A stretch of DNA of 64,000 nucleotides from Deltaproteobacteria bacterium (GCA_016712475.1 JADJRA010000001.1:1797414-1861413); one strand, 5' to 3'. Shown: positions 43,486-64,000, counted from the stretch's first letter. Notes: a model not told the origin generated them from the sequence alone. A program made the numbers and translations.

Positions 43486-44082
43486 ATGCTCCGCGCGATC
43501 ACCCACCGCGTCATCACTGCTCCCGCGCTCGCCGCCGTCTTCGCGAGCTCGCTGGTCGGCGGTCTCGTCGTCCCCACGCAAGCATCGGCGAGCAACAACA
43601 GCCTCACCACGCCGATCACCGGCGCCTCACTCGATGCGATGTGGCCCATCGCCGTCGAGGTCGAGATCGTGCGCGTCGACGGCGACGGCGAGACCGTGCC
43701 GCGCACGCGATCGCGGGCCGTGCTCAGGCGTCAGCGATCGATCGTGCCCGATGGACACGAGCTGCAGCTGCACAGCGCCGTGCGAACCGATCGCGGCCGT
43801 CGAGAGTTCGCACTGAGCGTCACCGCCCATCAGCACCCAGGTGATGCGGTCGAGCTCGAGTGGTCGCTGCAGGTGCGCGATGCCGAGTACCGCAAGCTCG
43901 ATGCGCCCTCATACTTGCTCCATCGTCTGCAGCTCTCCAACGTGCTGGAGCTGGCCGAGCCGACCCTGAAGATCGCGCGCGCGGACATCGTCTCGGTGCG
44001 ACGCGAAGGCCACACGCAGCGGCTCGAGATCGACGGAGAACTCCACGAAATCCGCATCTTTGCCCGCTCCATGCGCGGTTGA
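43486..44082 (+). CDS. hypothetical secreted protein
   Basis: MLRAITHRVITAPALAAVFASSLVGGLVVPTQASA is a signal peptide. ~198 aa. Immediately upstream of pal-like/ybgF on the same strand. Confidence 0.35.
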   Translation: MLRAITHRVITAPALAAVFASSLVGGLVVPTQASASNNSLTTPITGASLDAMWPIAVEVEIVRVDGDGETVPRTRSRAVLRRQRSIVPDGHELQLHSAVRTDRGRREFALSVTAHQHPGDAVELEWSLQVRDAEYRKLDAPSYLLHRLQLSNVLELAEPTLKIARADIVSVRREGHTQRLEIDGELHEIRIFARSMRG

Positions 44083-44203
44083 CACAGGCCACCGGCGTGC
44101 TATTGCTTGGCCCGCCGAAAGCCCCGCTGCGGTACCTTCGTTCGGGCTTCGCGGCAACCACCGACCCACCCGCCGCACCCTCTTCTGCGGGAGAACCGAA
44201 ACG

Positions 44204-45055
<852 letters not shown>

Positions 45056-45077
45056 TCTGCGAAGGGGAGTGTTGAAC

Positions 45078-45917: not shown

Positions 45918-45962
45918 GCGCGGCGTCCGGCCCTCGCACGAAGGCCGGCGCCGCTGCAGCCG

Positions 45963-47129: not shown

Positions 47130-47306
47130 CGTCAGCCACGATGGACCTCGCCGTCGCGGGTGGTCAAGCGCGGCCCACGGACACGAACGCCGTGACACGG
47201 GCGTCGACGCGACGCGATGCGCGATCACGAACTCGCGCATGCGATGGCCACCGCCGTTCGGTGGTTTCAATCACACTTTGCGGCACCACGCTCGGTGATG
47301 GCCGGT

Positions 47307-48629: not shown

Positions 48630-48866
48630 CAGGCAGCTCCAAGATTTTTTGCACGGTCGGGCCCACGAGGCAATTGCCGAAACGGTGCGGGTCCTCGCGG
48701 GGCGATGCGGCGCACACCGACCTCGCCTGCACCAGGGCTCGTGGGCGCTCGTCCGCGGCGTCGCGCGACGACGAGCGCCGGGTTGACAGATGCGATGCAA
48801 ACAGCGGCCGCGCGAGCCCGGTTCGGGCGCCCAGGGCGCCCGGACGGTTCCGCGCGGCCCGCTCGA

Positions 48867-50447: not shown

Positions 50448-50611
50448 GTCCGCATCTCGTCTCTCTGCCCCAGCCCAACATCACCTTAGGGGGGCGCGAC
50501 GACGAGCGACAGCTCAGTGAGGGCGCGACTACGCAGGCCTACGTACGAAGATCGCATGTAGGCAACGGCCGCGGTGAACCGCGACCGCAATTGCAGCACG
50601 CGGTCGGCCGA

Positions 50612-52252: not shown

Positions 52253-52558
52253 CGCCGCCGCCCCTCCCAGAAGGACCCGAGGGTCCCCCATGAGAGGTAC
52301 CCGGTTGCTCGCCCGGTGAGGGCGACGATATCGCCGCGTACGCAGGCCGGCGTAGGCGTTCACGCGCATCGCCCTCGGGCACGCGCACGCGCACGCGCGC
52401 GCGAGGGCGGGGACTCCGCCACCGGTGCCCCGCGTGGCCCCGGCCGACCAAGCTCTCGCCAGTTTCAGCCGCGAACCCGCCTTCGGACGCCGATCTTGCG
52501 CCAGGTCACGTTTCGCCGATCGCTTGATCGTGCCGCCACGACGACTAAGATCTGGCCC

Positions 52559-53152
52559 ATGTTCGCGTCGTCTCGTCTGCGCGCCCGCTTCGTGGTCCCT
52601 GGCTTGTTCGGTCTCTCCCTCGCGGTCTCGGGCCTCGTGTTGCCCGTCGCCCACGCCGAGGACGACGACGTGATCGCGGCCGAAGACGAAGACGCGCCCA
52701 AGGACGCCGCGGCGATCAAGATCGAGCTCAAGCAGGAGAGCGGCAAGGTCCTCAAGTACGACGGCGCCGTGCTCGACTGGGGCGCCGACGGCAACGTCGA
52801 GTTCAAGGCCGACAACCACGTGCACGACGTCGCGCTGCGGGTCGATCGCGGCGAGGGCGAGGGCAAGACCATCCAGCTGACGGTCGGCTACACCCGCGAT
52901 GGCAAGTCCATCATCGAGGACCACACGGTGTCCTCGGAGATCAAGAAGCGCGAGGTCATCCGCATCGAAGGTGGCATCGCAATCGCGATCACCGTGACGC
53001 CGAAGCCGAGCAAGGCCACGCCGCCGCCGGAGGAGACCAAGCCGAGCGAGAAGCCCGACGAGACGCCCGACGAGCCCAGCGAGCCGCCCGCGCCCAAGAA
53101 GCGCAAGATCGAGGGCGGCGACAGCGACGACCCGCTCGACGGCCTGCGCTGA
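52559..53152 (+). CDS. hypothetical secreted Lys/Glu-rich protein
   Basis: MFASSRLRARFVVPGLFGLSLAVSGLVLPVAHA is a signal peptide. 197 aa with a Lys/Pro/Glu-rich C-terminal tail. Confidence 0.45.
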   Translation: MFASSRLRARFVVPGLFGLSLAVSGLVLPVAHAEDDDVIAAEDEDAPKDAAAIKIELKQESGKVLKYDGAVLDWGADGNVEFKADNHVHDVALRVDRGEGEGKTIQLTVGYTRDGKSIIEDHTVSSEIKKREVIRIEGGIAIAITVTPKPSKATPPPEETKPSEKPDETPDEPSEPPAPKKRKIEGGDSDDPLDGLR

Positions 53153-53175
53153 TCCATCGGCCCCGCAACGCCAAC

Positions 53176-53221
53176 GGGCTCGGCACCACACCCACGTGGT
53201 CCCGAGCCCGTCGTCGTTTTC
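53176..53221 (+). terminator. candidate rho-independent terminator (GC hairpin + T-run)
   Basis: GGGCTCGG-caCCACacccacGTGGtc-CCGAGCCC followed by gtcgtcgTTTTcgg. Lies 24 nt after the stop of 52559..53152, in a convergent intergenic region. It is followed by a (GTGC)4-5 microsatellite at ~53223-53242. Confidence 0.4.
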
Positions 53222-53241
53222 GGTGCGTGCGTGCGTGCGTG

Positions 53242-54420
53242 CTACCGGCCGGCGGCCTCGAGCTTGGCGAGCCGCTGCTCGAGACTGCCGAGCTCGCGCT
53301 GCAACGCCGCCTTGTCCTCGCGCAGCTGCTCGAGCTCGGCGTGTAGCGCCTGGATCGACGCCAGCGCGACACCATCGGCGTCGACCTGGAAGATGAGCCT
53401 GTCGGTCTTGCCCACGCCGAACGCGGCGTGGAAGTCCTGCGCCATCGGGCCGATGTGCCGGATCGCCTCGTCCTCGAAGCGGTAGCTCCACGTCGTGATC
53501 GGCATCGCGAGCACACGCTCGAGCACGTTCTTCGGATCGACGGCCGCGAAGTTGTGCTTGCGATTGCGATCGCTGATCGGACACACCTGCCCGCAGAACT
53601 CCTGGCCGGGCTCGATCGGCACGCCGCCGCAACACTGCAGGTCTTCGCAGCAGGCTTCGCCCATCGCACAGCTCTCGCCGTCGCCGACGCACATCCCGCC
53701 GCAGACCTCGCCCAGATCGCACGCGGGCGGTTCGTCGCCGTTGGGGCACTGCCACATGCCGTCGGCGCAGCACGACGCCGTGCCGATCAGGCAGAAGGGC
53801 ATCGCGTCGGGGTCGCAGCAGCTCGGCGGCGGCGGACAGGGCTCGCCCTCGACGTCACAGGCCCCCTGCTCGGGGCATGACCACTCGCCATTGCCGCAGC
53901 AGGAAGCCGGGCCGCCCATGCACGCCGGCGGATCGCCGACGCAGCACTGGGGCTGCTCGCACACGACGCCGACGTCGCAGGTCGGATTGCCACCCTCGTC
54001 GTTGCACGCCCACGTGCCGTCGACGCAGCAGCTCGATCCTTCGATGCACGGCGGCGCCTCTTCCGGCAAGCAGCACACGTCGGGACCCGTCGTGTTGCCG
54101 CCGCTGCTGCTGCTGCCGTCGCTGCTCCCGCTGCTGCTGCTGCCACCGCTGCTCCCGCTGCCACTGCTGCCACCGCTGCTGCTGCTGCCATCGGTGGTCG
54201 CCGTCGTCGTCGCGGTCGTGCCGGTGTCATCGGTCGTCGTCGCGGTGCTCGACGCCGAGGTGTCCGCGGTGGTCGCGGTCGTCGATGCGGTGGTCGAGGT
54301 CGAACCGCCCGAGGCCGAGCTCGAGCTCGAGCCCGAGGGATCGGTGTCGCCGGTGACATCGTCACCACAACCCGCGACGAGACACGCCGACGCAAAACCA
54401 ATGGAGATCAACTTGCGCAT
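53242..54420 (-). CDS. lipoprotein with Ser/Thr-rich linker, Cys-rich module and C-terminal peptidase-S74 intramolecular-chaperone (tail-fiber/endosialidase chaperone) domain
   Basis: MRKLISIGFASACLVAGCGDD lipobox. ~100-aa S/T/G linker. ~25 Cys in CC/CxC patterns. C-terminus ISDRNRKHNFAAVDPKNVLERVLAMPITTWSYRFEDEAIRHIGPMAQDFHAAFGVGKTDRLIFQVDADGVALASIQALHAELEQLREDKAALQRELGSLEQRLAKLEAAG matches the S74 chaperone pattern (SDxRxK.N...W.Y.......HiG..AQ). Confidence 0.6.
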   Translation of the reverse strand: MRKLISIGFASACLVAGCGDDVTGDTDPSGSSSSSASGGSTSTTASTTATTADTSASSTATTTDDTGTTATTTATTDGSSSSGGSSGSGSSGGSSSSGSSDGSSSSGGNTTGPDVCCLPEEAPPCIEGSSCCVDGTWACNDEGGNPTCDVGVVCEQPQCCVGDPPACMGGPASCCGNGEWSCPEQGACDVEGEPCPPPPSCCDPDAMPFCLIGTASCCADGMWQCPNGDEPPACDLGEVCGGMCVGDGESCAMGEACCEDLQCCGGVPIEPGQEFCGQVCPISDRNRKHNFAAVDPKNVLERVLAMPITTWSYRFEDEAIRHIGPMAQDFHAAFGVGKTDRLIFQVDADGVALASIQALHAELEQLREDKAALQRELGSLEQRLAKLEAAGR

Positions 54421-54747
54421 GGTCCACCAAGCCCTTCCCGGCCCGCGGATGAACGCCATCCACGAGGTCCGCTCGGGTGAACGGCCGCGACGCGGGCAAT
54501 CCTTCGCCGAGGATTGCTCGCGCCTTGCGGGACCGGTCGGAACCGACGTCCGGTGGCATCGCGACCTGCCGTAAGGTGACGTCCCGACGGACGTGCACGT
54601 CGGTGCACAAGCGCGGACGTTGGCGGCGAGTGACGCGTGCCCGCGGCGTGCTACGCTCGCTGCGGAGCGCCCGCGTTGGGGTGTTTCGAGCATCGGGTCC
54701 CATTGGGGGGCCGAGCAGGGCCGGACCGGCCAGGTGGGGTGGAGACG

Positions 54748-56103
54748 ATGGTCGCGATGGATCTCGTGCGTGCAACCATGGTGGGTTTGGTCGTCGCATC
54801 GGCGTGCGGCGGTACCGGCGGCGGCGATGGCAGCGGTGACGGCTCCGGTGGTTCGTCATCGGCGTCGACGCACGGCGACGACAGCAGCGCCGGTGGTTCG
54901 TGCGTCGAGGGGTGTCCAGCCGGCAGCGATTGCGTCGACGGCACCTGCGTGCCCTGGTGCGACTGCGCCGATCCATGCAACTGCGGCTGTGCCGTGGCCG
55001 CGGACGACTGCCCGTCGATCGAGTGCTCCGTCGACGGTGACTGCGGCGAAGGCCAGGTCTGCCTCGACGGCCTGTGCAACCCGGCACCCCCGGATTGCGC
55101 GTCGCGTCCACAACCTGGCCCCGCGGAGCCGCTCGCGCTCGGCGAGGGCGACGGCGTCGTCACGGCGCTGGCCTTCGTCGAGATCGATGCCGGCGCGCCG
55201 CAGCTGCTCGTCGCGCGCGGCGACGCCGTGTTGGCCGCGAGCGACACCACCGTGACACCCCTGCTCACCGCCGGGCCGGTGCAGCGCTTCGCAGCCGCCG
55301 ACCTCGACGGCGATGGCGTGGCCGAGCTCGCCGTCGCCGGCATCGCGCCGGCGCCGACACTGCAGGTGTTCCGCCGCGATGCGGACGGCACCACGTGGAC
55401 CGCCTTTCATGAAGACGCGCTCGGCGGGCACGCCATCGACGTGTTGGTCTTCGGCGATCACGACGGTGACGGCATGATCGATCTGTTGGTGCAGACCGAA
55501 GCCGGTATCTCGTCGCTGCCGGGCCTCGGCGGCGGCGGTCTCGCGGACGCGGTCGCGCTGGGTGCCGCACAGGCGCAGGGCCGCATGGCCGCCGGCGATT
55601 TCGACGGCGACGGCAGCGTCGACCTCGCATATCCCGTGGCCATGGGCTACGGCATCATCGTCGGCGGTGCGGGTGGCGAAGCCGGCCTCGAGGGGGTCGG
55701 TGCCGCCTCGCCGTCGGTCGGGATGTTCGCTGACGACTTCGACGGTGACGGCGTGGTCGATCTGCTCGACGTACGCGCCGACGCGAACCTGCGCCTGTGG
55801 GACCCCGCGTTCGGAAGCCGTGGCAACGCCGACGACTTCGATCTCACCGACGTCGTCCACGTCGGCGTCGCGCGCATCGACAGCAACGAACGGGCCGACG
55901 TGTTCGCGATCGCCTCCGACGGCTCGCTGGCGACGCGCTTCGGCTGGGACGTGCGCCCGGAGCTCGAGCGGGTGCCGCTGGCGTGCGACGAGGTCGACGC
56001 CTCGCTGACGCCGCCCTCGGTCGTCGCGGTCGGACGCGACGCGGACGGGGTGCTGTGGCTCGCGACCAGCGATGGCAGCACGGTCGAGCGACGCCGCTGG
56101 TGA
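54748..56103 (+). CDS. FG-GAP/integrin-alpha-like repeat lipoprotein with N-terminal Cys-rich module
   Basis: METMVAMDLVRATMVGLVVASACGG lipobox. Cys-rich CVEGCPAGSDCVDGTCVPWCDC.... Four DxDGDGxxDL calcium-binding FG-GAP cores (DLDGDGVAEL, DHDGDGMIDL, DFDGDGSVDL, DFDGDGVVDL). Confidence 0.55.
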   Translation: MVAMDLVRATMVGLVVASACGGTGGGDGSGDGSGGSSSASTHGDDSSAGGSCVEGCPAGSDCVDGTCVPWCDCADPCNCGCAVAADDCPSIECSVDGDCGEGQVCLDGLCNPAPPDCASRPQPGPAEPLALGEGDGVVTALAFVEIDAGAPQLLVARGDAVLAASDTTVTPLLTAGPVQRFAAADLDGDGVAELAVAGIAPAPTLQVFRRDADGTTWTAFHEDALGGHAIDVLVFGDHDGDGMIDLLVQTEAGISSLPGLGGGGLADAVALGAAQAQGRMAAGDFDGDGSVDLAYPVAMGYGIIVGGAGGEAGLEGVGAASPSVGMFADDFDGDGVVDLLDVRADANLRLWDPAFGSRGNADDFDLTDVVHVGVARIDSNERADVFAIASDGSLATRFGWDVRPELERVPLACDEVDASLTPPSVVAVGRDADGVLWLATSDGSTVERRRW

Positions 56104-56127
56104 ACCACCGACCGACGCCCGACGGGC

Positions 56128-56925
56128 TCAACCACCCGACGGATGCGTCGGCTGGTCGTGCGACTGCGGCGCGGCCTGCTGCTGGCCCGGGTCGTAGTAT
56201 TGGGCCTGGTATTGGGCCTGGTATTGGGCCTGGTATTGGGCCTGGGCCGCCGCCTGCTCCTGCTGCCAGCGTGCCACCGCTTCGGCGTCGGCGCGGGTCT
56301 GCTTGCGTGCGAACAGGGCGTATCCACCCGCCGCGAGCAGCAGCACCGCCGCGACCACCGCGGAGACCATCGCTTGGTTGCGGTCCGGGTGGCCGCCGTG
56401 CTCGATGACGAGATAGCGGCTATCCACCTTCGGGAAGTTGCGCTCGACGAGCACCCGATCGTCGCGCCGCACGGTCGTCGTCAACCCGGTCGTGCCGTCT
56501 CCGACCACGAGCGGCGTCAGCTCTTCGAGCACGCCGAGCACCGCTGCGTCGTCGCTGGCGCGCTCGAGCTCGCCCGTCAGCTCGATGACGCGCGGATCCT
56601 CGCTGACCAGCAGCGTCACCGTATCCGCGGCCGCCCCAGACCCCGGCGGCACCAGCGGGAGCCACACCGCATCGACCCGCGAGCCCTTGCTGATCACGAA
56701 GATCTCGTCGAACGCGATCTCGCACGTCGGCAGCTTCACCCACCGATTCGAGCCGATGTCCTGCGCCGCGGCGGCGTCGCACGCGAGCGTCGTGAGCTCC
56801 GGATTGCGCTGCACCGTCTCGAACCCTCCGGCCGCCACGACGGCGAAGGCGAGCCCGAAGAACAACATCAGTCCCGCCGGAACGTAGCGATACTTGGCGC
56901 GCGCGGTGGCTCCTGCCGGTGTCAT
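56128..56925 (-). CDS. membrane protein with C-terminal (AQYQ)n repeat
   Basis: Two predicted TM helices (LMLFFGLAFAVVAAGGF near the N-terminus; MVSAVVAAVLLLAAGGYALFA near the C-terminus). Tail QEQAAAQAQYQAQYQAQYQAQYYDPGQQQAAPQ is encoded by a 12-bp x4 tandem repeat (gtattgggcctg) at ~56197-56250. Confidence 0.45.
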   Translation of the reverse strand: MTPAGATARAKYRYVPAGLMLFFGLAFAVVAAGGFETVQRNPELTTLACDAAAAQDIGSNRWVKLPTCEIAFDEIFVISKGSRVDAVWLPLVPPGSGAAADTVTLLVSEDPRVIELTGELERASDDAAVLGVLEELTPLVVGDGTTGLTTTVRRDDRVLVERNFPKVDSRYLVIEHGGHPDRNQAMVSAVVAAVLLLAAGGYALFARKQTRADAEAVARWQQEQAAAQAQYQAQYQAQYQAQYYDPGQQQAAPQSHDQPTHPSGG

Positions 56926-57060
56926 GATTCGCGTTATATCAAGCGCCCGCGCACGCCGCAGCCACGCTTTCGCACGCGGCGTGAATGGCCGTTCGATCGC
57001 ATTGTCGGCAGCGGCGATCCGGCCGGTGCGAGCGAGCGCGGCGATATGCTCGCGCGCCCC

Positions 57061-58296
57061 TCAGCGTGACAGTCGTGTGATGCCGGCCGGCAAGCTCGCG
57101 AACACCGAGCCGACATCGCCCGCGCGCGCGCTGCTCTGTCCGTCGCTGCCCGCTCGGCCGGGCTGGCCCGCGCTGCCCTCGGCGCCATCGATGCCGTGCT
57201 TGCCCGCCTTGCCGCCGCTGCCCTGGCCGTTGCCGCTGAAGCCACCGTCGCCCGCACGGCCCGCACGGCCGGCCTCACCCGCGCGACCGGCCGAGGCATC
57301 GAGCGCGATCATGCTCGCGAGCTCTGGCAGTGACGCGTCGTAGATCACCTCGAGCACACCGCCGTTGCCGCCGTTGCCACCGCTGCCTCCGTTGCCGCCG
57401 CGGCCACCATTGCCGCCGGTGCCACCGGGGTTGCCTCCGCCGCCGCTGCCTCCGCGACCACCATTGCCACCGGCACCACCATCACCGCCGTCGCCCCCAC
57501 CGGCGACGATCATCACCGGCTTCGAGGCGTCCATGAGCACGAGGTCGTCGACATCGCCCTCGATCTTCACGAGCACCATCCGATCGTGGTGTGGCGTCTT
57601 CACGAGCGTGGCGTAGGCGGTGATGCGCGGCCCATCGGCACCGTCGCCGCCATTGCCACCGTCGCCACCGTCGTCGCCGATCGCACCATCGGCACCCGGC
57701 GCGCTGTCACCTCCGCCGTCGCCAGACTTGCCCATCGAGCCTGTCGCACCACCGCGACCGCTGCTGCCGAACTCGCCGAACGATCCAGCGTGGGTGATGC
57801 AGTCGTAGCTCGGCTCGAAGCGCAGGGTCGAAGGCGCGACCTTGCGCTCGCGGGGATAGCTCGCCGTGATGGTGAAGCCGCTCAGCTCGTTGGCGAGCAT
57901 GTCGCTGCCCGGCACGAATGCGCCGGTCTCGAGATCGACCTCGCCGCCCTCGGCGGTGAACCCGAACTCCTCGAAGTCGAGCTTGCCGGCGTGCTTGCCC
58001 TCGTCGGCCAGCGACCAGGTCTCGAGCCGCTTGTGCTTGCCCTTGCGGCGCTTGTGCTGCGCGTCGGCGTACACCGCCAGCTGGACGCCACCGCGGGCAC
58101 AGATGCCCTTGGCGTCGCGCAGCCCCAGCGTAATCTTCGAGACCTCCCAGTGATCGAGCTTGGCGGCGTTCTTCTTCGCCGCATCGACCACCATCGTGAT
58201 GATGCTGCAGCCCGCCAGCGGAGCCGCGAGCGCGGTGACGAGGGACGCGGCGAGCAGCTTGGTGGGGAGCTTCGTTCGGAGCTTCGTTCGGTGCAT
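57061..58296 (-). CDS. lipoprotein with glycine-rich GGxGG runs and collagen-like Gly-X-Y triplets
   Basis: MHRTKLRTKLPTKLLAASLVTALAAPLAGCS lipobox. GGDGGDGGAGGNGGRGGSGGGGNPGGTGGNGG runs. C-terminal GEAGRAGRAGDGG...GKAGKHGIDGAEGSAGQPGRAGSDG gives ~8 uninterrupted G-X-Y triplets. Confidence 0.5.
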   Translation of the reverse strand: MHRTKLRTKLPTKLLAASLVTALAAPLAGCSIITMVVDAAKKNAAKLDHWEVSKITLGLRDAKGICARGGVQLAVYADAQHKRRKGKHKRLETWSLADEGKHAGKLDFEEFGFTAEGGEVDLETGAFVPGSDMLANELSGFTITASYPRERKVAPSTLRFEPSYDCITHAGSFGEFGSSGRGGATGSMGKSGDGGGDSAPGADGAIGDDGGDGGNGGDGADGPRITAYATLVKTPHHDRMVLVKIEGDVDDLVLMDASKPVMIVAGGGDGGDGGAGGNGGRGGSGGGGNPGGTGGNGGRGGNGGSGGNGGNGGVLEVIYDASLPELASMIALDASAGRAGEAGRAGRAGDGGFSGNGQGSGGKAGKHGIDGAEGSAGQPGRAGSDGQSSARAGDVGSVFASLPAGITRLSR

Positions 58297-58634
58297 GGCG
58301 GGGCCTCTTGGCGTCCCCTCGAGAGCAGGCGGTGTTCCAGGCCCGGCGAGTGCCCCGTGGAGAGCCGCGATACCCGTGGGATCGCGCAGGCTTGTGCGGC
58401 GCACGAAGGGCCCGGGCCGCGAGCTGGGTCGACGCGGATCGATCCGCACACGACCCCTGCGATGACCCGATCCGCGTCGCGGCGCGACCGCACCGCACCG
58501 CGGGCGGTGTCACGTTCGCCCATGGCGTCAGCGCACGATGGTCAGGCCGAACTCCCGCTCGATGCAGGGCGCGCGGGTGAGCGGGGGTTCGTCGCGACTG
58601 CAGAGCCCCGTGCCGCTGCTGGCGTGATAGCCTG

Positions 58635-60470
58635 TTGGTGCGAATGCTCCGCGTCGCGCTCGCCGCTTGTGCCCTCGCGCTGGCCTGCGTTCGACCGAGC
58701 AGCGCACCGCCCTCGGGTTCGCAAGCCGTGCCGGCGGGGCGCGGGCGGGCGATCGGCATCGTGACCGGCACTCCGTGGATCGGCGGCGGCCCGCCGGACC
58801 ACCGACCGTGGCGGGCGATCACGGCGCTCGACCGTCGATTCGACCTCGTGCCGCTCGACCTCGATGGTCCGATCGAAGCCAGCGTCGGCGTCGTCGTCGT
58901 GCCGCAGCTCTCCTCGCTCACTCAGCCGCAGCTCGAACGCCTCGCGGAAGCCATCGACGGCGGCGTGCCGGCGATCCTCGTCGCCGATCCGATACCGATC
59001 GTCGACCTCCGCCTCGGGCCGAGCGAACCGATCGCCGGCAGCGCGGGGTCGAGCCTGTCGGGCGACACGTCGGGCCCGACCAAAGGCAATGCCGTCGGGT
59101 TTCTCGCACGACTGGGCGTCGCGTGGCGGCCCGGTGACGTCGTGGTCGATGCCGAGGGCATCGCGGACGCGCCGCTCGAGCTGGTGACCGCCGACGCCAA
59201 GGCGCCGCTGGTCGGACCGCTGGTGCTGTCGTTCTCCGGTGACCTCTCCGCCACCGGCGATGCCATCGCGTGGACGCCCCTCGTGACGACGCGGCGTCCG
59301 ACGCGGACCGCCGCGAACGACGACTACGTCCAGCATCATCCGTTGTTCGGGCCGCAACTCATCCGCTCGAGCGAGGAGGCACCCGTGCCGCGCAAGAGCA
59401 CCGATGCGCAGGTGCGCACGATCGTGGCCCGCGTCGACGCACCCGGCGGCACGACCCGCGCGCCGGTGATCGTCGCCGCCGACCTCGACGTCTTCGGCGA
59501 CGCGCGCATCGACCTCGAGATCGACCACGAGCGAGTCGCCAACGAACGCCTGCTCGCCGGCCTCGTCGGCCAGCTCGTGGGCGATGGCGACGACCCCGTG
59601 GCACCGGTCGTCGGCGCGCCGTTGTTGGATCCGGCGACGCGCGCCTCGGTCGTCGCGATCGAGGTGCGCTCGCAATACGATCGCAGGCTGCCGGCGGAGC
59701 TCGGCAGTCACCAGGAGCGGCTCCTCCAGTGGCTCCGGTTGGAGCACCGCGAGAACGCGTGGATCATGCATTCCGGCCTCGCCGAGCCCGCCGAGCCGGC
59801 ACGCGTGGACGCGCTGCTCGACGCGCTCGCGACGGCGCGCTGGGAGCCCGCGCCAGCAATGTCCACGGTACTGCGAGATCCGAGCGCCGATGGCACGTCG
59901 GACGCGATCCGGATCGTCGCGCGCGATGCCGACGGCGCGACCGTCCTCGACGTGCTCGTCGCCGGCAACGGCGACCCACGACTCGCGCATCCGACCTTCG
60001 CCTCCGAGCCACGCGCCGTCCGGCTGGCGCTCGCGGCGAACCCATCGGTGCGGTCGTTCGCCCGCGGCGTCGATCTCGGCCCGACGCCCCCGCAGATCGC
60101 GTCGGCATCCGTGACCACCTATCGCATCGACGCGGCGCGAGGGCTCCTCGCCGACGTCCAGACACACCCCGCGAACGCTGCGGCCCTCGCCGCGTTGCTC
60201 GGCGCTCGCTTCTTCCCGATCCATCGATCGACCCAAACGACGGCCCTCGAGCTCGCCGCGCGCGGGTTCAACCTCACGCAAGGCGGGAAGCTCTGGGGCA
60301 GCGTCGGCGAGATCGAGCTGAAGCTCGCGAGCGGCAAGACGATGCGCGTCGTGTTCGGCGCCTCCGGCGACGACGGGCGCGCCACGCTCGTCGAGGGACG
60401 CGACGACGACGCGCTGTGGATCTACGCCGTCGACGAGGCGATCGTGCAGCGCGTGCTCAGCGGGAGCTGA
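58635..60470 (+). CDS. hypothetical secreted lipoprotein (possibly ABC-transporter-auxiliary/GldG-like)
   Basis: MVRMLRVALAACALALAC lipobox. 611 aa. The GldG-like assignment is a weak impression from VVVPQLSSLTQPQLERLAEAIDGGVPAILVADP only. Confidence 0.35.
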   Translation: MVRMLRVALAACALALACVRPSSAPPSGSQAVPAGRGRAIGIVTGTPWIGGGPPDHRPWRAITALDRRFDLVPLDLDGPIEASVGVVVVPQLSSLTQPQLERLAEAIDGGVPAILVADPIPIVDLRLGPSEPIAGSAGSSLSGDTSGPTKGNAVGFLARLGVAWRPGDVVVDAEGIADAPLELVTADAKAPLVGPLVLSFSGDLSATGDAIAWTPLVTTRRPTRTAANDDYVQHHPLFGPQLIRSSEEAPVPRKSTDAQVRTIVARVDAPGGTTRAPVIVAADLDVFGDARIDLEIDHERVANERLLAGLVGQLVGDGDDPVAPVVGAPLLDPATRASVVAIEVRSQYDRRLPAELGSHQERLLQWLRLEHRENAWIMHSGLAEPAEPARVDALLDALATARWEPAPAMSTVLRDPSADGTSDAIRIVARDADGATVLDVLVAGNGDPRLAHPTFASEPRAVRLALAANPSVRSFARGVDLGPTPPQIASASVTTYRIDAARGLLADVQTHPANAAALAALLGARFFPIHRSTQTTALELAARGFNLTQGGKLWGSVGEIELKLASGKTMRVVFGASGDDGRATLVEGRDDDALWIYAVDEAIVQRVLSGS

Positions 60471-60583
60471 GCCGGCACGAGGCTCCCGCACCCCCTCGAG
60501 GGCCGAGCATTCGCCCACCGGGCTCGGACGAGGCCGACTGTGCGCTGAGCCGTCTTGCCCGGCTCGTGCGACCTCCTACCGCG

Positions 60584-63500
60584 ATGCCCACGCGCCCGCT
60601 TCCGTGGTTGTTCCCGGCCCTCGTCGTCGCGCTGCCCGCGGTCGCGCACGCGCAGGACGAACCGATCGTCTACGTGCGCTGCCCCCACACGACCGAGCCG
60701 CTGCAGTTGCCGACCGGCACGACGATTTTCGGCATCGACATCTACGACATCCTGCCCGACGTCACGCACTTCTTCGGGGGCTTCGCAGCACCGTGCGATC
60801 TGGTGCTGCGCGAACCCGAGGGCACCGAGACCGTGCTGTACGACTGCACCGCGACCTCGACCGACGAGGCCGGTTGCGCGGCGATGGACCCGGCGGTCTC
60901 GTTCGACGGCGAGACCATCGCGTTCTCGGTGTTTCGCGGTCCGCTGGTGCCCGGCGAGGAGAGCTTCTCCGAGGCGATCGGCGGCGACGGGGCCTTTCAC
61001 GACCTGCCCGGGCGCAACCTCGCGACGACCGAAGCGCAGCTGCACCTGGTCGATGTCGCCAGCGGCGAGGTGACCGCGCTGCCCCACGTGGCGGGCGCGA
61101 TCGATGCCGGCCCCGCCTGGCTGCCCGACGGACGCATCGCGTTCACATCGACGCGCGACGGCAACCGCTCGACGATGGTCTTCGGCACCAACAGCGCCGC
61201 GCCGGGTTCGCGGATCTGGTCGATGGATCCCGACGGCCGCAACGTCGATTTGGCGAGCCATCACTCGCTGTCCCAGGAGCAGCATCCGCTCGTGCTCGCC
61301 GACGGACGCGTGGCCTACTCGAGCTGGCAGATCTTCGGCGGCATCACGTTCCGCTACACCAACGGCAGCCCGGGCGGCTTCGGCACCATCGGCAACCACT
61401 TCAACATCTTCGTGCAGTCACCCGACGGCGCCGAACCGTTCGCGTTCTATGGGCAGCACTGCGGCGACCACTCGCCGATCACCTCGGCCAATGTCGATCA
61501 CAAGGCCGCGCACTTTCTCACCCAGGACTCCGCCGGCCGCGTGTGGTTCAACGACTACTACCGCGGCAACAACAACGCGCTCGGAAACATCGTCGGCGTG
61601 ATGCCCGAGCCCGAGGGGCAAGAGGGCATGCTCGACCCCGAGGCGCCCCTGCCGGATCTGTACGCGCCGCGCGACATCATCCGACTCGCGACGTGGTCGA
61701 GCAGCTCGGACAGCTTCGCGGCGCTGATGCCTGCGCCCGCGTACGTCCATCCCGAGTACGCCGATCCGCTGCCGTGGGCGGGCAAGCTCGGCCACCCCAC
61801 GGCGCTACCCGACGGTGGCCTCGCGGTGGTGTGGGGCAAGGGCGCGTGCAGCACGGTCGCAGACAACGGCGTGTTCGCGTCGTTGGGCCTGCCCACGCCG
61901 CCGAACACCTCCGGCTCGGGGGGTGGCAACGCGGCCAACGTGTTCACCCAGCTCGGCCTCGACACACCAGGCTGTGATGCGGGCATCTACGAGGTCACGA
62001 CGATCCCATCGCTGCATCCGAGCGACCTCGAACAGATCGTCGATTCGAAGCAGTATCATGAGATCATGCCGCGCGCGGTGGTCCCCTACGCGGCGATCCA
62101 CGGCATCGAACGCCCGGCCGAGATCCCACGCGCCGATCGGGCCACATCGCGCCCAGACCTTCCTGTCGGCACGCCGTTCGGCCTGCTCGGCGCCGCGTCG
62201 ATCCTCGACCGCGAGACCCACCCCGTGGGTGGCATCCACTTCCAGGGCGAGCACCAGTTCCACCTGCAGGGCACCGACACGATCGACTACGGCGACGACG
62301 ATCTGTGCGGCGTGCGGATCCTCGGCGTGATGCCCAACCGCGGCGACAACACCTACGAGCAGATCGCCAACGTCGCCGGGGAGCGCGTGCTGATCCTGGG
62401 CGAGTTCGGCGTGCGCAACACCGACGAGGGCGGCGCCGCGCTGATGGATCCGAGTGGCAACCCCGACACGAGCTTCCTCGTGCGCTTCCCGGCCAACATG
62501 CCGTACTTGATGCAGGGCATCGATTGCGACGGCCGCACGCTCAACACCGACCAGAGCTGGCAGAGCCTGCGCCCCGGTGAGATGAAGACCTGCGGTGGAT
62601 GCCACGTGCACTCGAAGGAATCGCGCGTCGGGTTCGACGAGACCTTCGCCGCCCTCCCCGACTACCCCATCATCACGCTCGGCGAGGGCACCGTGCCCCT
62701 GCTGGCCGGCGTCACCGCCGACGGTCCCGCGGTGCGCGAGGTCGAGGGCTACGGGCTGCAGATCGACTTCGAGCGCGACATTTCGCCGATCTTCGACGCC
62801 CACTGCAACAGCTGCCATGGCGGCGCGACGCCGGCGGGATCGCTGGCGCTCGATCTGCCGGGTATCGAAGAGGGCTCGACGTGGTGGTGCCTCGTCGAAG
62901 ACGGCGGGCAGTCATGCGTGCCCGAGGCGCAACGCATGAACACCGGCGCCGGTGGCAGCAGCACCTCGTTCCGCCGGCCGCAGCTCACCCGCTACGTGCG
63001 CGCGTTCAACTCGCTGGGGAGCTTGCTGTACTGGAAGGCCGCCGGCCAGCGCACCGACGGCAACACCGATGCGACCTTCGACGACGCGAGCCCGGCGGAG
63101 GATCGCGACCTCGACTTCGGTCCCGCCCACGAGACCACGATCACGCCCGAGGAGCTGGGCCTGCTCGCACGTTGGATCGAGATCGGTGCACCTGGCGGCC
63201 CCGAGGAGCTCACCGACACGCAGCGCCCCACGCTCACGCTCGCGGCGCGGTACGAGAACGACGCCGTCACGGCGTTGCGCGTCGGCACCGTCGACGTCCC
63301 CAGCGGCATCGATGTCGCGTCGCTGCTGGTGTGCATCGTCGACGGCGCGGGCAACTGCACCACCATGCTCGCCGAAGGCGGCGCGATGCCCCACGACGTG
63401 CTCGAGATCCCGCTCGACACGCCTCTGGACGATCCCGAGGTCGAGGTGCTGGCACGCGTGCGCGACCTGGCGGGCAACGAGACCGAGCTCCGACGCACCG

Positions 63501-63772
63501 TGCGATGGCTGCTCGACTCGCCGCTGCCGCCCGACCCCGCGGGCACGACCGGTGGCGCGGACGAGGGCGGCTCGGGTTCGGCCACCGCCGACGGCACTGC
63601 TGGCGGAGCTTCGGCCGGCACGGCCAACGACGAGAGCGGCGCGGGGCTCGATGGCGGCGGCGGTGGTGGCGGCAGCGGCTGCGGCTGCACGCAGTCGCGC
63701 GGCAGCAGCGGGTGGTGGCTCGCGCTGGTCTGCGTCGCGCTGCGGCGCCGTCGCGCAGCCGCTCGCGCGTGA
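60584..63772 (+). CDS. secreted TolB-like beta-propeller protein with two CxxCH heme-c motifs and MYXO-CTERM
   Basis: MPTRPLPWLFPALVVALPAVAHA is a signal peptide. PD40/TolB-type blade motifs (IAFSVFRG, IAFTSTRDGNRST, SMDPDGRNVDLA, VAYSSW). CGGCHVHS and CNSCHGG are heme-c binding sites. Ends GSGCGCTQSRGSSGWWLALVCVALRRRRAAARA. The ORF track's upstream 438-codon extension from 59270 is rejected. Confidence 0.6.
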   Translation: MPTRPLPWLFPALVVALPAVAHAQDEPIVYVRCPHTTEPLQLPTGTTIFGIDIYDILPDVTHFFGGFAAPCDLVLREPEGTETVLYDCTATSTDEAGCAAMDPAVSFDGETIAFSVFRGPLVPGEESFSEAIGGDGAFHDLPGRNLATTEAQLHLVDVASGEVTALPHVAGAIDAGPAWLPDGRIAFTSTRDGNRSTMVFGTNSAAPGSRIWSMDPDGRNVDLASHHSLSQEQHPLVLADGRVAYSSWQIFGGITFRYTNGSPGGFGTIGNHFNIFVQSPDGAEPFAFYGQHCGDHSPITSANVDHKAAHFLTQDSAGRVWFNDYYRGNNNALGNIVGVMPEPEGQEGMLDPEAPLPDLYAPRDIIRLATWSSSSDSFAALMPAPAYVHPEYADPLPWAGKLGHPTALPDGGLAVVWGKGACSTVADNGVFASLGLPTPPNTSGSGGGNAANVFTQLGLDTPGCDAGIYEVTTIPSLHPSDLEQIVDSKQYHEIMPRAVVPYAAIHGIERPAEIPRADRATSRPDLPVGTPFGLLGAASILDRETHPVGGIHFQGEHQFHLQGTDTIDYGDDDLCGVRILGVMPNRGDNTYEQIANVAGERVLILGEFGVRNTDEGGAALMDPSGNPDTSFLVRFPANMPYLMQGIDCDGRTLNTDQSWQSLRPGEMKTCGGCHVHSKESRVGFDETFAALPDYPIITLGEGTVPLLAGVTADGPAVREVEGYGLQIDFERDISPIFDAHCNSCHGGATPAGSLALDLPGIEEGSTWWCLVEDGGQSCVPEAQRMNTGAGGSSTSFRRPQLTRYVRAFNSLGSLLYWKAAGQRTDGNTDATFDDASPAEDRDLDFGPAHETTITPEELGLLARWIEIGAPGGPEELTDTQRPTLTLAARYENDAVTALRVGTVDVPSGIDVASLLVCIVDGAGNCTTMLAEGGAMPHDVLEIPLDTPLDDPEVEVLARVRDLAGNETELRRTVRWLLDSPLPPDPAGTTGGADEGGSGSATADGTAGGASAGTANDESGAGLDGGGGGGGSGCGCTQSRGSSGWWLALVCVALRRRRAAARA

Positions 63773-64000
63773 CCACGGACACGCGCCACGACGAGCGTGG
63801 TTCGTGATCGACGTGACGGTCGATCGCGGCGACGCCGAACGGACCGATCGCGGTGCGGCTCGGCGACGACGCAGCGGCGCTCGCACGGTTGAGTCGTGGC
63901 TCTGTGCAGGCAGTGATGACGTCGCTGCGTCGAGCTACACGTGGATCCCGTCCACGGCGAGCGCCTCGACGAGGAGTGCCTTGCCTTGCGTCAGCCCGCG

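What the first reader, a model, noticed from the sequence alone, without database searches (positions are those of the whole stretch)
60584..63772. 1062-aa TolB-like beta-propeller protein carrying two c-type heme motifs and a MYXO-CTERM tail
A signal peptide is followed by WD40-like TolB/PD40 blade motifs, two well-separated CxxCH sites (CGGCHVHS at ~aa 665; CNSCHGG at ~aa 745), and a C-terminal Gly/Ser-rich stretch ending GSGCGCTQSRGSSGWWLALVCVALRRRR. The combination of a surface-sorted beta-propeller with di-heme motifs is uncommon and is not an obvious member of a named family. It could be an extracellular redox enzyme or sensor.
Basis: partly seen in the sequence, partly recalled or inferred. 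Interest (0 to 1): 0.6.

Follow-up and report, generated by a model that had tools for sequence, protein, structure and literature searches.

The report
Surface-anchored hydrazine-synthase-alpha-like di-haem protein
This gene encodes a cell-surface protein of a myxobacterium with a six-bladed propeller and two covalent haem sites; it belongs to a widespread, already catalogued but never characterised family distantly related to the alpha subunit of anammox hydrazine synthase, and it is almost certainly not a hydrazine synthase.

Summary
ORF 60584-63772 (+) encodes 1062 aa with a signal peptide, a TolB/PD40-type propeller, CxxCH at aa 670-674 and 741-745, and a MYXO-CTERM-type tail.

It hits Pfam PF18582 (HZS_alpha) above threshold. 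Its AlphaFold model (pLDDT 85.9) matches Kuenenia hydrazine synthase alpha (5C2V_A) along the whole chain (Foldseek E 1e-25); the next hits cover the propeller only.

Both haem motifs are kept in almost all 119 full-length homologues. Relatives at 39-82% identity (mostly above 50%) occur in Myxococcota, Bdellovibrionota, Lysobacterales, Colwellia/Thalassotalea, Nitrosomonas and Nitrospirales. Sources already name some of them 'HzsA-related protein'.

It is not a hydrazine synthase:
- The Tyr591 haem ligand is absent (Lys678).
- Haem 1 carries the superfamily signature CxGCHxH plus Glu666, both altered in anammox HzsA.
- It scores 47 bits against the 800-bit equivalog cut-off.
- No beta/gamma-like di-haem gene lies within 10 kb in any of 84 loci.

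Best reading: a stand-alone, surface-displayed di-haem redox enzyme of unknown substrate. Haem 1 is probably catalytic. Haem 2 is bis-His (His745/His849) and probably relays electrons. Interest is moderate.

The parts
60584..63772 (+). Complete gene, 1062 codons plus stop: HzsA-related di-haem propeller protein
   Evidence: Translation. Codon-position GC 0.68/0.52/0.90. 267 homologues at E<=1e-3, the best at 98% identity.
60584..60652 (+). Sec signal peptide, aa 1-23 (MPTRPLPWLFPALVVALPAVAHA, predicted cleavage before QDEP)
   Evidence: Read from the sequence. Orthologue N-termini have the same layout. pLDDT is low here. The cleavage site is inferred.
60662..62083 (+). N-terminal TolB/PD40-type beta-propeller, aa ~27-500 (six blades inferred). 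It carries the superfamily-conserved His234, His310 and Tyr325-Tyr326.
62084..62749 (+). Middle domain, aa ~501-722, homologous to the HZS alpha middle domain. Near-invariant residues: Arg578, Asp628, Ser630, Asp647, Glu666.
   Evidence: PF18582 matches aa 627-674, E 2.2e-10. phmmer and profile alignments to 5c2v_A. Conservation.
62591..62611 (+). Haem 1 attachment motif CGGCHVH (Cys670, Cys673, His674, His676), equivalent to haem alpha-I of hydrazine synthase
   Evidence: Invariant in the 45-sequence alignment A1. 246 of 252 superfamily sequences have His at +2. Aligns to CSGCHYG of 5c2v_A.
62753..63199 (+). C-terminal class-I-like cytochrome c domain, aa ~724-872 (mostly helical)
   Evidence: AF2 helices at 729-745, 766-772, 814-820 and 855-866. 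Aligns to 5c2v_A 643-669 and to PccH 4rlr_A.
62804..62818 (+). Haem 2 attachment motif CNSCH (Cys741, Cys744, His745), equivalent to haem alpha-II
   Evidence: Invariant in A1. 97% conserved in superfamily representatives. Aligns to CAMCH of 5c2v_A.
63128..63130 (+). His849, candidate distal ligand of haem 2 (bis-His)
   Evidence: Invariant in A1. Present in 71 of 123 superfamily representatives. It sits in the motif DxDFGxxH...ITxEE...RWIxIGA, which aligns to GRLLH(772)NKFLTQDERYAIVEWIDLGA of 5c2v_A. That stretch scores weakly on its own; the match rests on the motif.
63230..63511 (+). Ig-like beta-sandwich domain, aa ~883-976, with the conserved D-x-AGN motif
   Evidence: AF2 strands 883-972 at pLDDT above 90. 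Invariant Gly901, Asp904, Asp961, Gly964, Asn965. Absent from anammox HzsA, whose crystallised chain is 782 aa.
63512..63673 (+). Disordered Gly/Ser/Ala/Asp-rich linker, aa 977-1030
   Evidence: pLDDT below 50 for aa 988-1045. Composition read from the sequence.
63674..63769 (+). MYXO-CTERM-type sorting signal: SGCGC motif, short spacer, hydrophobic helix WWLALVCVAL, RRRR
   Evidence: Sequence. AF2 helix 1044-1061. Three-part definition in PMC11980579. Orthologue tails and their source names. Other such tails lie in the window at 4616-5881, 48867-50447 and 50612-52639. No NCBIfam MYXO-CTERM model hit.

Best explanation
The gene encodes a stand-alone member of the HzsA (hydrazine synthase alpha) superfamily that is displayed on the cell surface.

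**Export and anchoring (inferred from the sequence and from published work on these systems)**
- The precursor is exported by Sec.
- Two c-type haems are attached in the periplasm, at Cys670/Cys673 and at Cys741/Cys744.
- The MYXO-CTERM tail is cleaved at the GCGC motif by myxosortase (MrtX).
- The probably lipidated protein is then moved to the cell surface, where the Ig-like domain and the Gly/Ser linker act as a stalk.

**Fold (shown by model and fold search)**
- It has the three-domain HZS-alpha body: propeller, middle domain with haem 1, and cytochrome c domain with haem 2.

**Haem sites (inferred)**
- Haem 1 is the catalytic site. It probably lies between the middle domain and the propeller.
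- Its proximal ligand is probably the canonical His674, not a tyrosine.
- Its pocket is built from residues that are near-invariant across the superfamily: His676, Glu666, Asp647, Asp628, Ser630, Arg578, and the propeller residues His234, His310 and Tyr325-Tyr326.
- Haem 2 is a low-spin bis-His haem (His745/His849). It probably exchanges electrons with an outside partner.

**Function**
- The most likely role is a redox enzyme acting on a small diffusible molecule outside the cell. Candidates are a peroxide or reactive oxygen species, or a nitrogen oxide or hydroxylamine. The substrate is not determined.
- It does not make hydrazine.
For: **Family and fold**
- PF18582 scores above its gathering cut-off.
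- phmmer and the A1 profile hit only 5c2v_A plus a small cytochrome c in the PDB, and align both haem regions.
- The AF2 model has pLDDT 85.9 and pTM 0.85.
- Foldseek's best PDB hit is 5c2v_A: E 1e-25, 994 aligned columns, target-normalised TM 0.62. The next hits are TolB at E 3e-9 and cover the propeller only.

**Haem sites**
- Both CxxCH motifs are conserved.
- His849 is invariant in the close family and aligns to alpha-His772.

**Not a hydrazine synthase**
- The position of Tyr591 is Lys678. Only 1 of 252 superfamily sequences has Tyr there, whereas both anammox-type sequences read CSGCH[YD]GSY.
- Glu666 and His676 are at least 97% conserved in the superfamily, but are His and Gly in 5c2v_A.
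- The NCBIfam hydrazine_alpha equivalog scores 47 bits against a cut-off of 800.
- No ORF with two or more CxxCH lies within 10 kb in any of 84 loci.
- No neighbour gene family is shared across phyla.

**Surface display**
- The tail is of MYXO-CTERM type (PMC11980579).
- Homologues in other lineages end differently. Colwellia and Thalassotalea copies end in a Gly-rich stretch followed by a hydrophobic helix and basic residues. Some copies carry long Ig/cadherin/PKD extensions. Lysobacterales copies end in ...NGFE.

**Selection**
- Identity of 39-82% (mostly above 50%) across Myxococcota, Gamma- and Betaproteobacteria, Nitrospirales and Bdellovibrionota points to strong constraint.
Against: - No biochemical data exist for any member. 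Published studies of HzsA homologues found no characterised relative other than HZS itself (PMC12758564, PMC10732223).
- I could not read coordinates from the model. The placement of haem 1 against the propeller, the choice of His674 as ligand and the pocket residues are therefore inferences from conservation and from the HZS description, not measurements.
- In HZS, haem alpha-II is reported not to be within efficient electron-transfer distance of the other hemes (PMC12607021). If the same geometry holds here, an electron-relay role for haem 2 is doubtful.
- The MYXO-CTERM assignment rests on pattern and on orthologue names, not on a model hit.
- No gene context hints at a substrate.
Confidence: 0.7

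Rival explanations
1. It is a true hydrazine synthase alpha subunit or an equivalent N-N bond-forming enzyme, so this myxobacterium carries out anammox-like chemistry.
For: Same three-domain fold and both haem sites. His849 aligns to alpha-His772. Many paralogues occur in the nitrifiers Nitrosomonas marina and Nitrospirales.
Against: - Tyr591 is absent. Glu666 and His676 replace the anammox His and Gly.
- 47 bits against the 800-bit equivalog cut-off.
- Only 14% identity in the structural alignment.
- No beta/gamma-like di-haem gene within 10 kb in 84 loci.
- The hosts are mostly aerobic heterotrophs or predators (the physiology is my own knowledge).
- Surface sorting is incompatible with an anammoxosome enzyme.
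- Published analyses of other HzsA homologues reached the same negative conclusion (PMC12758564).
Confidence: 0.03
2. It is a surface haem peroxidase or reactive-oxygen-detoxifying enzyme. A five-coordinate His-ligated haem 1 reacts with H2O2 or organic peroxides, with conserved His/Arg/Tyr residues acting as acid-base and radical sites. This is one specific version of the best explanation.
For: - Near-invariant His234, His310, Arg578 and Tyr325-Tyr326 resemble the distal His/Arg sets of peroxidases. That comparison is from memory.
- The hosts are aerobes and predators, and the protein is displayed at the surface.
- A Kelch-propeller gene lies directly upstream in L001 and L004. Homologous ORFs flank the gene in L022, L069 and L077. 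A Kelch-like domain is fused at the C-terminus in P0017 and P0027.
Against: - The geometry of these residues relative to the haem was not determined.
- The Kelch neighbour shows no detectable similarity to copper radical oxidases and is absent from this window.
- There is no peroxidase family hit.
Confidence: 0.2
3. It is a surface enzyme acting on nitrogen oxides or hydroxylamine (for example NH2OH or NO oxidation or reduction), sharing substrate class but not reaction with hydrazine synthase.
For: - The only characterised relative handles NH2OH and NH3 at the equivalent haem (PMC12607021).
- At least four copies per genome in Nitrosomonas marina Nm71 and Nm22, plus copies in other Nitrosomonas and in Nitrospirales MAGs.
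Against: - The family is at least as common in Myxococcota, Lysobacterales, Colwellia/Thalassotalea and Bdellovibrionota, lineages not known as nitrifiers (my own knowledge).
- No N-cycle genes are adjacent.
- The haem 1 ligand environment differs from HZS.
Confidence: 0.15
4. It is not an enzyme. It is a redox sensor, an electron shuttle for extracellular electron transfer, or a haem-carrying adhesin or binding protein.
For: - In HZS, haem alpha-II has no assigned function (PMC12607021).
- Many homologues carry adhesin-like Ig/cadherin/PKD repeats.
- The Nannocystaceae paralogue clade sits next to ECF sigma and FecR genes.
Against: - Two haems in a ~1000-aa protein is a poor electron conduit.
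- About ten polar residues around haem 1 and in the propeller are 85-99% conserved across 123 diverged cluster representatives. That pattern is typical of an active site.
- ECF/FecR linkage applies to a paralogue, not to this gene, and usually marks a regulated gene rather than a sensor.
- No signalling domain is present.
Confidence: 0.12
5. It is an ordinary TolB-like periplasmic propeller protein, and the two CxxCH motifs are fortuitous.
Against: - TolB equivalog score is 19 against a cut-off of 343.
- Chance probability of two CxxCH is about 5e-5, and both are conserved across phyla.
- About 560 residues beyond the propeller match HZS alpha.
- No tol-pal genes are adjacent.
Confidence: 0.01

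Closest known systems
Hydrazine synthase alpha subunit (HzsA, kuste2861) of 'Candidatus Kuenenia stuttgartiensis', PDB 5C2V/5C2W chain A
   Same: - Same three-domain architecture: propeller, middle domain with a c-type haem, and C-terminal cytochrome c domain with a second haem.
- Foldseek E 1e-25 over the whole chain.
- Both CxxCH motifs align. Asp628, Ser630 and Asp647 are shared. His849 aligns with the distal ligand alpha-His772.
   Different: - Only about 14% identity.
- The proximal Tyr591 is replaced by Lys678. The superfamily-invariant Glu666 and His676 are His and Gly in HzsA.
- No HzsB or HzsC partners are encoded nearby.
- This protein adds an Ig-like domain, a linker and a surface-sorting tail.
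- The host is a Nannocystaceae myxobacterium rather than an anammox planctomycete.
HzsA-like proteins of clades I-IV in Planctomycetota, Desulfobacterota and others (Hagglund et al. 2025, PMC12758564), and the hzs-like genes of Dalcin Martins et al. 2023 (PMC10732223)
   Same: - Distant HzsA homologues that keep the haem alpha-I site, lack Tyr591 and are judged unable to make hydrazine.
- Function unknown. A broader enzyme family with other substrates has been proposed.
   Different: - Those clades were defined by co-location with a fused beta-gamma-like multihaem gene (most also with an FG-GAP/CRTAC1 gene), and the paper highlights anaerobic hosts. Here there is no such partner.
- Clade I is reported to lack the His772 equivalent, and clades II and III lack haem alpha-II altogether. 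This family keeps both.
- This family carries lineage-specific surface-sorting tails.
TolB (Tol-Pal system propeller protein)
   Different: TolB has no haem domains and no sorting tail, and it is encoded in the tol-pal operon. The equivalog score here is 19 against a cut-off of 343.
MYXO-CTERM / myxosortase (MrtX) substrates such as TraA of Myxococcus xanthus (PMC11980579)
   Same: C-terminal three-part signal: Cys-containing motif (GCGC), hydrophobic helix and Arg-rich end, preceded by a flexible linker.
   Different: Only the sorting tag is shared; the passenger domains are unrelated. Processing of this protein has not been shown, and no NCBIfam MYXO-CTERM model scored.
Propeller-plus-cytochrome-c redox enzymes (cytochrome cd1 nitrite reductase, quinohaemoprotein dehydrogenases, NirN)
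   Different: Blade number, cofactors (haem d1, PQQ) and domain order all differ. There is no sequence-family hit.

Membership tests
HzsA superfamily (Pfam PF18582 HZS_alpha-containing proteins) | Match to PF18582 above the gathering score | tested here: met
   41.4 bits against a cut-off of 26.6, E 2.2e-10, aa 627-674.
HzsA superfamily (Pfam PF18582 HZS_alpha-containing proteins) | Three-domain fold: propeller, haem-binding middle domain, C-terminal cytochrome c domain | tested here: met
HzsA superfamily (Pfam PF18582 HZS_alpha-containing proteins) | Conserved haem alpha-I CxxCH in the middle domain | tested here: met
   Cys670, Cys673 and His674 are invariant and align to CSGCH of 5c2v_A.
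Bona fide hydrazine synthase alpha subunit (NCBIfam NF052339 equivalog) | Score above the equivalog cut-off | tested here: not met
   47.3 bits against a cut-off of 800.
Bona fide hydrazine synthase alpha subunit (NCBIfam NF052339 equivalog) | Tyr591 as proximal ligand of haem alpha-I (motif CxxCHxxxY) | tested here: not met
   The aligned residue is Lys678. Tyr is at +4 in 1 of 252 superfamily sequences, whereas the anammox type reads CSGCH[YD]GSY.
Bona fide hydrazine synthase alpha subunit (NCBIfam NF052339 equivalog) | Zinc site formed by His587 and Cys303 | not testable with these tools
   His674 aligns to His587. The Cys303 equivalent could not be mapped, for three reasons:
- No coordinates or residue-level structural alignment are returned.
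- No full-length anammox HzsA sequence could be retrieved.
- The propeller region does not align at sequence level.

Cys303 is not universal even among anammox bacteria (PMC12758564).
Bona fide hydrazine synthase alpha subunit (NCBIfam NF052339 equivalog) | Bis-His haem alpha-II (CxxCH plus distal His772) | tested here: met
   Cys741, Cys744 and His745 are invariant. His849 is invariant in A1 and aligns to His772 through the motif ...H...TxEE...WIDxGA. The HMMER score of that stretch alone is weak.
Bona fide hydrazine synthase alpha subunit (NCBIfam NF052339 equivalog) | Encoded with hzsB and hzsC (propeller beta subunit and di-haem CCP/MauG-like gamma subunit) | tested here: not met
   - No ORF with two or more CxxCH lies in the 10-kb flanks of 84 related loci.
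- In this window, the only multi-CxxCH frames in the ~16.5 kb scanned upstream (44001-60583) are shadow frames of other genes.
- Only 228 nt downstream are visible, and they hold the end of a convergent gene.
TolB (TIGR02800) | Score above the equivalog cut-off and tol-pal gene context | tested here: not met
   19.3 bits against a cut-off of 343. Neighbours are ABC_transp_aux, a Gly-rich collagen-like protein, an FG-GAP protein and GH25 enzymes.
MYXO-CTERM / myxosortase-sorted proteins | C-terminal signature motif with invariant Cys, then a transmembrane helix, then an Arg-rich end (PMC11980579) | tested here: met
   ...SGCGCTQSRGSSGWWLALVCVALRRRRAAARA. AF2 helix 1044-1061. Orthologue tails have the same layout.
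MYXO-CTERM / myxosortase-sorted proteins | Hit to the curated MYXO-CTERM model | tested here: inconclusive
   No MYXO-CTERM domain model was reported, even for the isolated tail. There were only weak alignments to the tails of two myxosortase-dependent families, NF045638 and NF045523. Short models are often lost by HMMER filters. NCBI and JGI label the orthologues P0030, P0053 and P0106 as MYXO-CTERM.
MYXO-CTERM / myxosortase-sorted proteins | Cleavage by MrtX and surface localisation | not testable with these tools
   This needs experiment. No mrtX gene was looked for in the window.

The most novel reading that the evidence does not exclude
The stand-alone, surface-displayed HzsA-related proteins may be an uncharacterised class of extracellular haem enzymes of aerobic bacteria that carry out nitrogen-oxide or hydroxylamine chemistry, possibly including N-N bond formation or cleavage, outside the cell. 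They are kept at 39-82% identity (mostly above 50%) across Myxococcota, Proteobacteria, Nitrospirales and Bdellovibrionota, and are multi-copy in Nitrosomonas marina. On this reading they represent the ancestral state (His-ligated haem with the CxGCHxH/Glu signature) from which the Tyr-ligated anammox hydrazine synthase site was remodelled. That would link nitrifiers, predators and anammox through one enzyme lineage.
Probability: 0.12. Interest if true: 0.8.

Novelty: new member of a known kind. Interest (0 to 1): 0.42.

Why it matters
Hydrazine synthase is the signature enzyme of anammox and was long thought to have no relatives. Recent work found distant homologues, emphasised a few anaerobes, and defined its clades by linkage to beta-gamma-like genes (PMC12758564).

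This gene is one instance of a much larger branch with four features:
- It is highly conserved.
- It stands alone, with no partner subunit genes nearby.
- It carries surface-sorting signals.
- It is found in aerobic heterotrophs, predators and nitrifiers.

The branch keeps both haem sites but has a different, superfamily-wide haem 1 signature (CxGCHxH plus Glu). Characterising one member would give three things:
- A function for hundreds of 'HzsA-related' database entries.
- Evidence of what the hydrazine synthase active site evolved from.
- A guard against misannotation. PF18582 hits are used to call hzsA in metagenomes (PMC9325076), so proteins like this one are a source of false 'anammox potential'.

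For this window itself the result is mostly a correct annotation rather than a discovery.

Tried and rejected
- **Conserved operon partner.**
  - Five encoding-contig look-ups and a genome scan of 78 loci were followed by tblastx synteny.
  - All-against-all ORF clustering followed, then tblastn of the recurring neighbours against the window.
  - Nothing is shared across phyla, and there is no synteny even with the closest Nannocystaceae loci.
- **Beta/gamma-like partner.** A count of CxxCH-bearing ORFs in all flanks found none with two or more motifs.
- **Kelch neighbour or fusion as an H2O2-producing copper radical oxidase,** which would have supported a peroxidase role. There were only generic Kelch repeat hits and no PDB relative. 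The idea stays unsupported.
- **Full-length anammox HzsA for residue mapping.** A search with a 57-aa fragment read from the 5c2v alignment returned only a 94-aa fragment, P0266. Cys303 and the propeller residues could not be mapped.
- **Dietl et al. 2015 (Nature)** is not held in the library. Active-site facts were taken from PMC12607021 and PMC12758564.
- **AFDB Foldseek** was not available.
- **NCBIfam scan of the isolated tail** gave no MYXO-CTERM model hit.
- **Promoter and terminator scan** of 60200-64000 found nothing. That is uninformative in a 71% GC myxobacterial genome.
- **Literature searches** linking hydrazine-synthase-like proteins to Myxococcota or Nitrosomonas marina found nothing.
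- **Rejected readings:** TolB, S9/tricorn-type peptidase (propeller-only fold hits, no hydrolase domain), and a true hydrazine synthase.

Full report

Yes. Window 60584-63772 (+) translates to 1062 residues and a stop. GC at the three codon positions is 0.68/0.52/0.90, uniform along the gene. That is the coding signature of this 71% GC window. The longer 1500-codon open frame listed by the ORF tool is just the upstream extension that is normal in high-GC DNA. The ATG at 60584 yields a classical signal peptide (MPTRPLPWLFPALVVALPAVAHA|QDEP), and orthologues start the same way.

The other features are also present:
- A PD40 repeat scores above the Pfam cut-off (aa 172-194).
- CGGCH lies at aa 670-674 and CNSCH at aa 741-745. 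From the protein's own composition only 0.010 CxxCH are expected, so P(>=2) is about 5e-5.
- The tail ...SGCGCTQSRGSSGWWLALVCVALRRRRAAARA is as quoted. It fits the three-part MYXO-CTERM definition of a Cys motif, a helix and an Arg-rich end (PMC11980579).
- The window holds at least three other proteins with such tails.
- No curated MYXO-CTERM model scored on this tail. Sources do label orthologues as MYXO-CTERM proteins.

**2. What is it?**

Pfam gives one diagnostic hit: PF18582, 'hydrazine synthase alpha subunit middle domain' (41.4 bits against a 26.6 cut-off). Against all PDB sequences, the protein and a 45-sequence family profile (A1) each hit only two entries. These are hydrazine synthase alpha (5c2v_A) and a small cytochrome c, and both haem regions align.

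An AlphaFold2 model built on A1 is confident (pLDDT 85.9, pTM 0.85). It shows these regions:

| Residues | Region |
|---|---|
| ~27-500 | propeller |
| ~501-722 | mixed middle domain |
| ~724-872 | helical cytochrome c domain |
| ~883-976 | Ig-like sandwich |
| 988-1045 | disordered (pLDDT below 50); includes the Gly/Ser linker |
| 1044-1061 | terminal helix |

**3. How widespread and how conserved is it?**

- A word-indexed search found 267 homologues. The 120 listed carry PF18582 almost without exception.
- Among the full-length ones, motif 1 is universal, and motif 2 is missing in only three.
- In alignment A1, with members at 51-80% identity to the query, Cys670, Gly672, Cys673, His674, Val675, His676, Cys741, Cys744, His745 and His849 are invariant.
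- An exhaustive profile search found 355 clusters (50% identity) at E<=1e-30, 1222 at <=1e-10 and 4539 at <=1e-3.
- A genome scan returned 78 distinct loci. The closest, at 75-82% identity, are Nannocystaceae MAGs, so the window is from that family.
- Other loci come from Sandaracinaceae, Polyangiaceae, Labilithrix, Archangium, Bdellovibrionota, Lysobacterales (Dokdonella, Pseudomarimonas, Tahibacter), Colwellia, Thalassotalea, Glaciecola, Alcanivoracaceae, Sedimenticola, Burkholderiales and Nitrospirales.
- Many Nitrosomonas genomes carry it, with at least four copies each in N. marina Nm71 and Nm22.
- UniRef and NCBI already name some members 'HzsA-related protein' or 'Hydrazine synthase alpha subunit middle domain-containing protein'.
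- C-terminal ends vary by lineage, which fits an exported, cell-associated protein everywhere:
  - Myxococcota: MYXO-CTERM.
  - Colwellia and Thalassotalea: a Gly-rich stretch, then a hydrophobic helix and basic residues.
  - Lysobacterales: ...NGFE ends.
  - Several lineages: long Ig/cadherin/PKD extensions.

**4. Is it a hydrazine synthase?**

No, on five counts.
- The NCBIfam equivalog for HzsA scores 47 bits against a cut-off of 800.
- The haem 1 ligand differs. In Kuenenia HzsA the CxxCH histidine (His587) binds zinc and Tyr591 ligates haem alpha-I (PMC12607021, PMC12758564). Here CGGCHVHSK aligns to CSGCHYGSY, so Tyr591 corresponds to Lys678.
- Across 252 superfamily sequences, the residue two after the CxxCH histidine is His in 246. 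The residue four after is Tyr in only one. Both anammox-type sequences available (5c2v_A and fragment P0266) read CSGCH[YD]GSY.
- Glu666 (98% conserved) and His676 (97%) are His and Gly in 5c2v_A. Asp628, Ser630 and Asp647 are shared. The anammox enzyme therefore looks like a remodelled derivative of a different, widely conserved haem pocket.
- There is no partner. No ORF with two or more CxxCH motifs lies within 10 kb in any of 84 loci. ORF clustering found no neighbour family shared across phyla.

The immediate neighbours in the window are unrelated:
- A GldG-like ABC_transp_aux protein lies 113 nt upstream.
- Further upstream are a Gly-rich collagen-like protein, an FG-GAP protein and two GH25 lysozymes.
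- The flanks show no synteny with even the closest relatives.
- Only 228 nt are visible downstream, and they hold the end of a convergent gene.

One feature is more HzsA-like than in the published homologues. His849 is invariant in the family. It aligns with alpha-His772, the distal ligand of haem alpha-II, through the motif DxDFGxxH...ITxEE...RWIxIGA, matching ...GRLLHNKFLTQDERYAIVEWIDLGA. Clade I of Hagglund et al. lacks this histidine, and clades II and III lack the haem (PMC12758564).

**5. How does it most likely work?**

Shown:
- The protein has a signal peptide and two conserved haem c attachment sites.
- It has the HZS-alpha fold, an extra Ig-like domain, a disordered linker and a MYXO-CTERM-type tail.

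Inferred from established knowledge:
- Sec export and periplasmic haem attachment.
- Cleavage at the Cys motif by myxosortase, probable lipidation, and surface display through the type II secretion system (PMC11980579).

Inferred from conservation:
- Haem 1 is the functional centre. Across 123 diverged cluster representatives the best-conserved polar residues are all around it or in the propeller: Asp628 and Ser630 (99%), Glu666 (98%), His674 (99%), His676 (97%), Asp647 (93%), Arg578 (92%), Tyr325-Tyr326 (91-92%), His310 (87%) and His234 (83%).
- His234, His310 and His404 occupy the same position at the start of successive PD40 repeats (xHPxxxxDG). In propeller enzymes such positions usually line the central channel. 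That last point is my reading of the sequence, not a measurement.
- This pattern is what one expects of an active site, not of a simple electron carrier.
- Haem 2 is probably bis-His and low spin, like alpha-II (Em about -360 mV and surface-exposed in HZS; PMC12607021). It is the natural contact point for a redox partner.
- In HZS, however, alpha-II is reported to be too far from the other haems for efficient transfer. The relay role therefore remains open.

The substrate is unknown. I rate a peroxide or reactive-oxygen role at about 0.2, a nitrogen-oxide or hydroxylamine role at about 0.15, and a non-enzymatic role at about 0.12.

**6. Context clues that led nowhere definite**

- HzsA-like paralogues often sit side by side. 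They are convergent in L001, L007, L030 and L033, and tandem in L013, L026 and L027.
- A roughly 40%-identical paralogue clade in Nannocystaceae is linked to ECF sigma and FecR genes.
- Some Myxococcota loci have a Kelch-propeller gene directly upstream (L001 and L004). Homologous ORFs flank the gene in L022, L069 and L077. P0017 and P0027 carry a Kelch-like domain fused at the C-terminus.
- That Kelch protein shows no recognisable relation to copper radical oxidases.
- None of these genes occurs in the window.
- Six loci have a DUF1501 plus PSCyt-like gene pair nearby.

**7. Comparison with what is known, and novelty**

The closest characterised protein is HZS alpha. It shares the fold and both haem sites, at about 14% identity. 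It differs in haem 1 chemistry, partner subunits, cellular location and host.

The closest described uncharacterised relatives are the HzsA-like clades of PMC12758564 and the 'hzs-like' genes of PMC10732223. The authors of the latter already proposed a broad family with alternative substrates. Neither paper, nor any other I could find, describes this stand-alone, surface-sorted branch from aerobes.

Since databases already catalogue and name the family, this gene is a new member of a known, functionally uncharacterised kind. A practical point follows: PF18582 hits are used to call hzsA in metagenomes (PMC9325076), so proteins like this one can produce false 'anammox potential'.

**8. Verdict**

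The parts list and the extracytoplasmic redox role hold. The claims 'no named family' and 'uncommon' do not.
- Interest is moderate (0.42). The annotation is solid, and the family is widespread but unstudied with an intriguing link to hydrazine synthase evolution. Nothing in this particular locus points to a function.

Noticed in passing
window 30944-33448 (+): An 834-aa protein matches fatty acid cis/trans isomerase (CTI, PF06934) over its full length at E 6e-257. From memory, CTI is a periplasmic haem-c enzyme best known from Pseudomonas and Vibrio, so a myxobacterial copy is worth a look.
   Followed up: no
window 48867-50447 (-) and 50612-52639 (-): Two adjacent paralogous GH25 lysozyme-like proteins, each with a Golvesin_C domain and a MYXO-CTERM-type tail. 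They are plausibly surface-anchored cell-wall lytic enzymes.
   Followed up: partly
window 53242-54693 (-): A Ser/Thr/Gly-rich and then Cys-rich protein that ends in a Peptidase_S74 'chaperone of endosialidase' domain and a coiled coil. That domain is the self-cleaving C-terminal domain of phage tail-fibre and endosialidase proteins (from memory), and is unusual in a chromosomal myxobacterial gene.
   Followed up: no
window 54637-56103 (+): FG-GAP repeat protein (PF13517, E 9e-12). FG-GAP/CRTAC1 genes sit between the alpha-like and beta-gamma-like genes in clades I-II of PMC12758564. Here it is 4.5 kb away, separated by divergent genes, and there is no beta-gamma gene, so this is probably coincidence.
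   Followed up: partly
window 58635-60470 (+): A gene for a GldG-like ABC_transp_aux protein (PF09822) lies directly upstream, on the same strand with a 113-nt gap. It is not found next to the homologues in other genomes.
   Followed up: partly
window 57061-58449 (-): A 462-aa protein whose C-terminal half is an extreme Gly-rich (GGxG/GNGG) collagen-like repeat region.
   Followed up: no
L001 13157-16150 (-), L007 6057-8855 (-), L013, L026, L027, L030, L033: HzsA-related genes often occur as adjacent paralogue pairs, convergent or tandem, at 28-61% identity to the query. Both copies checked keep both CxxCH motifs.
   Followed up: partly
L001 16150-19055; L007, L072, L073, L077, L079-L081: In Nannocystaceae, the roughly 40%-identical paralogue clade is linked to an ECF sigma factor, a FecR-type anti-sigma factor and a 345-aa protein with no family hit. 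This suggests signal-dependent regulation of that paralogue.
   Followed up: partly
L001 8585-9964, L004 6658-7941, L022, L069, L077; proteins P0017, P0027: A Kelch-propeller gene (MYXO-CTERM-tailed in L001) lies directly upstream in L001 and L004, and homologous ORFs flank the HzsA-related gene in L022, L069 and L077. A weakly similar Kelch-like domain is fused to the C-terminus of the HzsA-related protein in P0017 and P0027. It shows no detectable similarity to copper radical oxidases.
   Followed up: partly
L031, L036, L038, L042 (N. marina Nm71); L037, L054, L056, L060 (Nm22): Nitrosomonas marina strains carry at least four copies each. Several lie at contig ends, as if repeated sequence broke the assembly.
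   Followed up: no
L017, L022, L055, L072, L073, L077: A DUF1501-like (Tat-signal) gene, paired with a gene for a PSCyt-like protein carrying one CxxCH, lies a few kb from the HzsA-related gene in six Myxococcota loci. L004 also starts with a DUF1501 gene.
   Followed up: no
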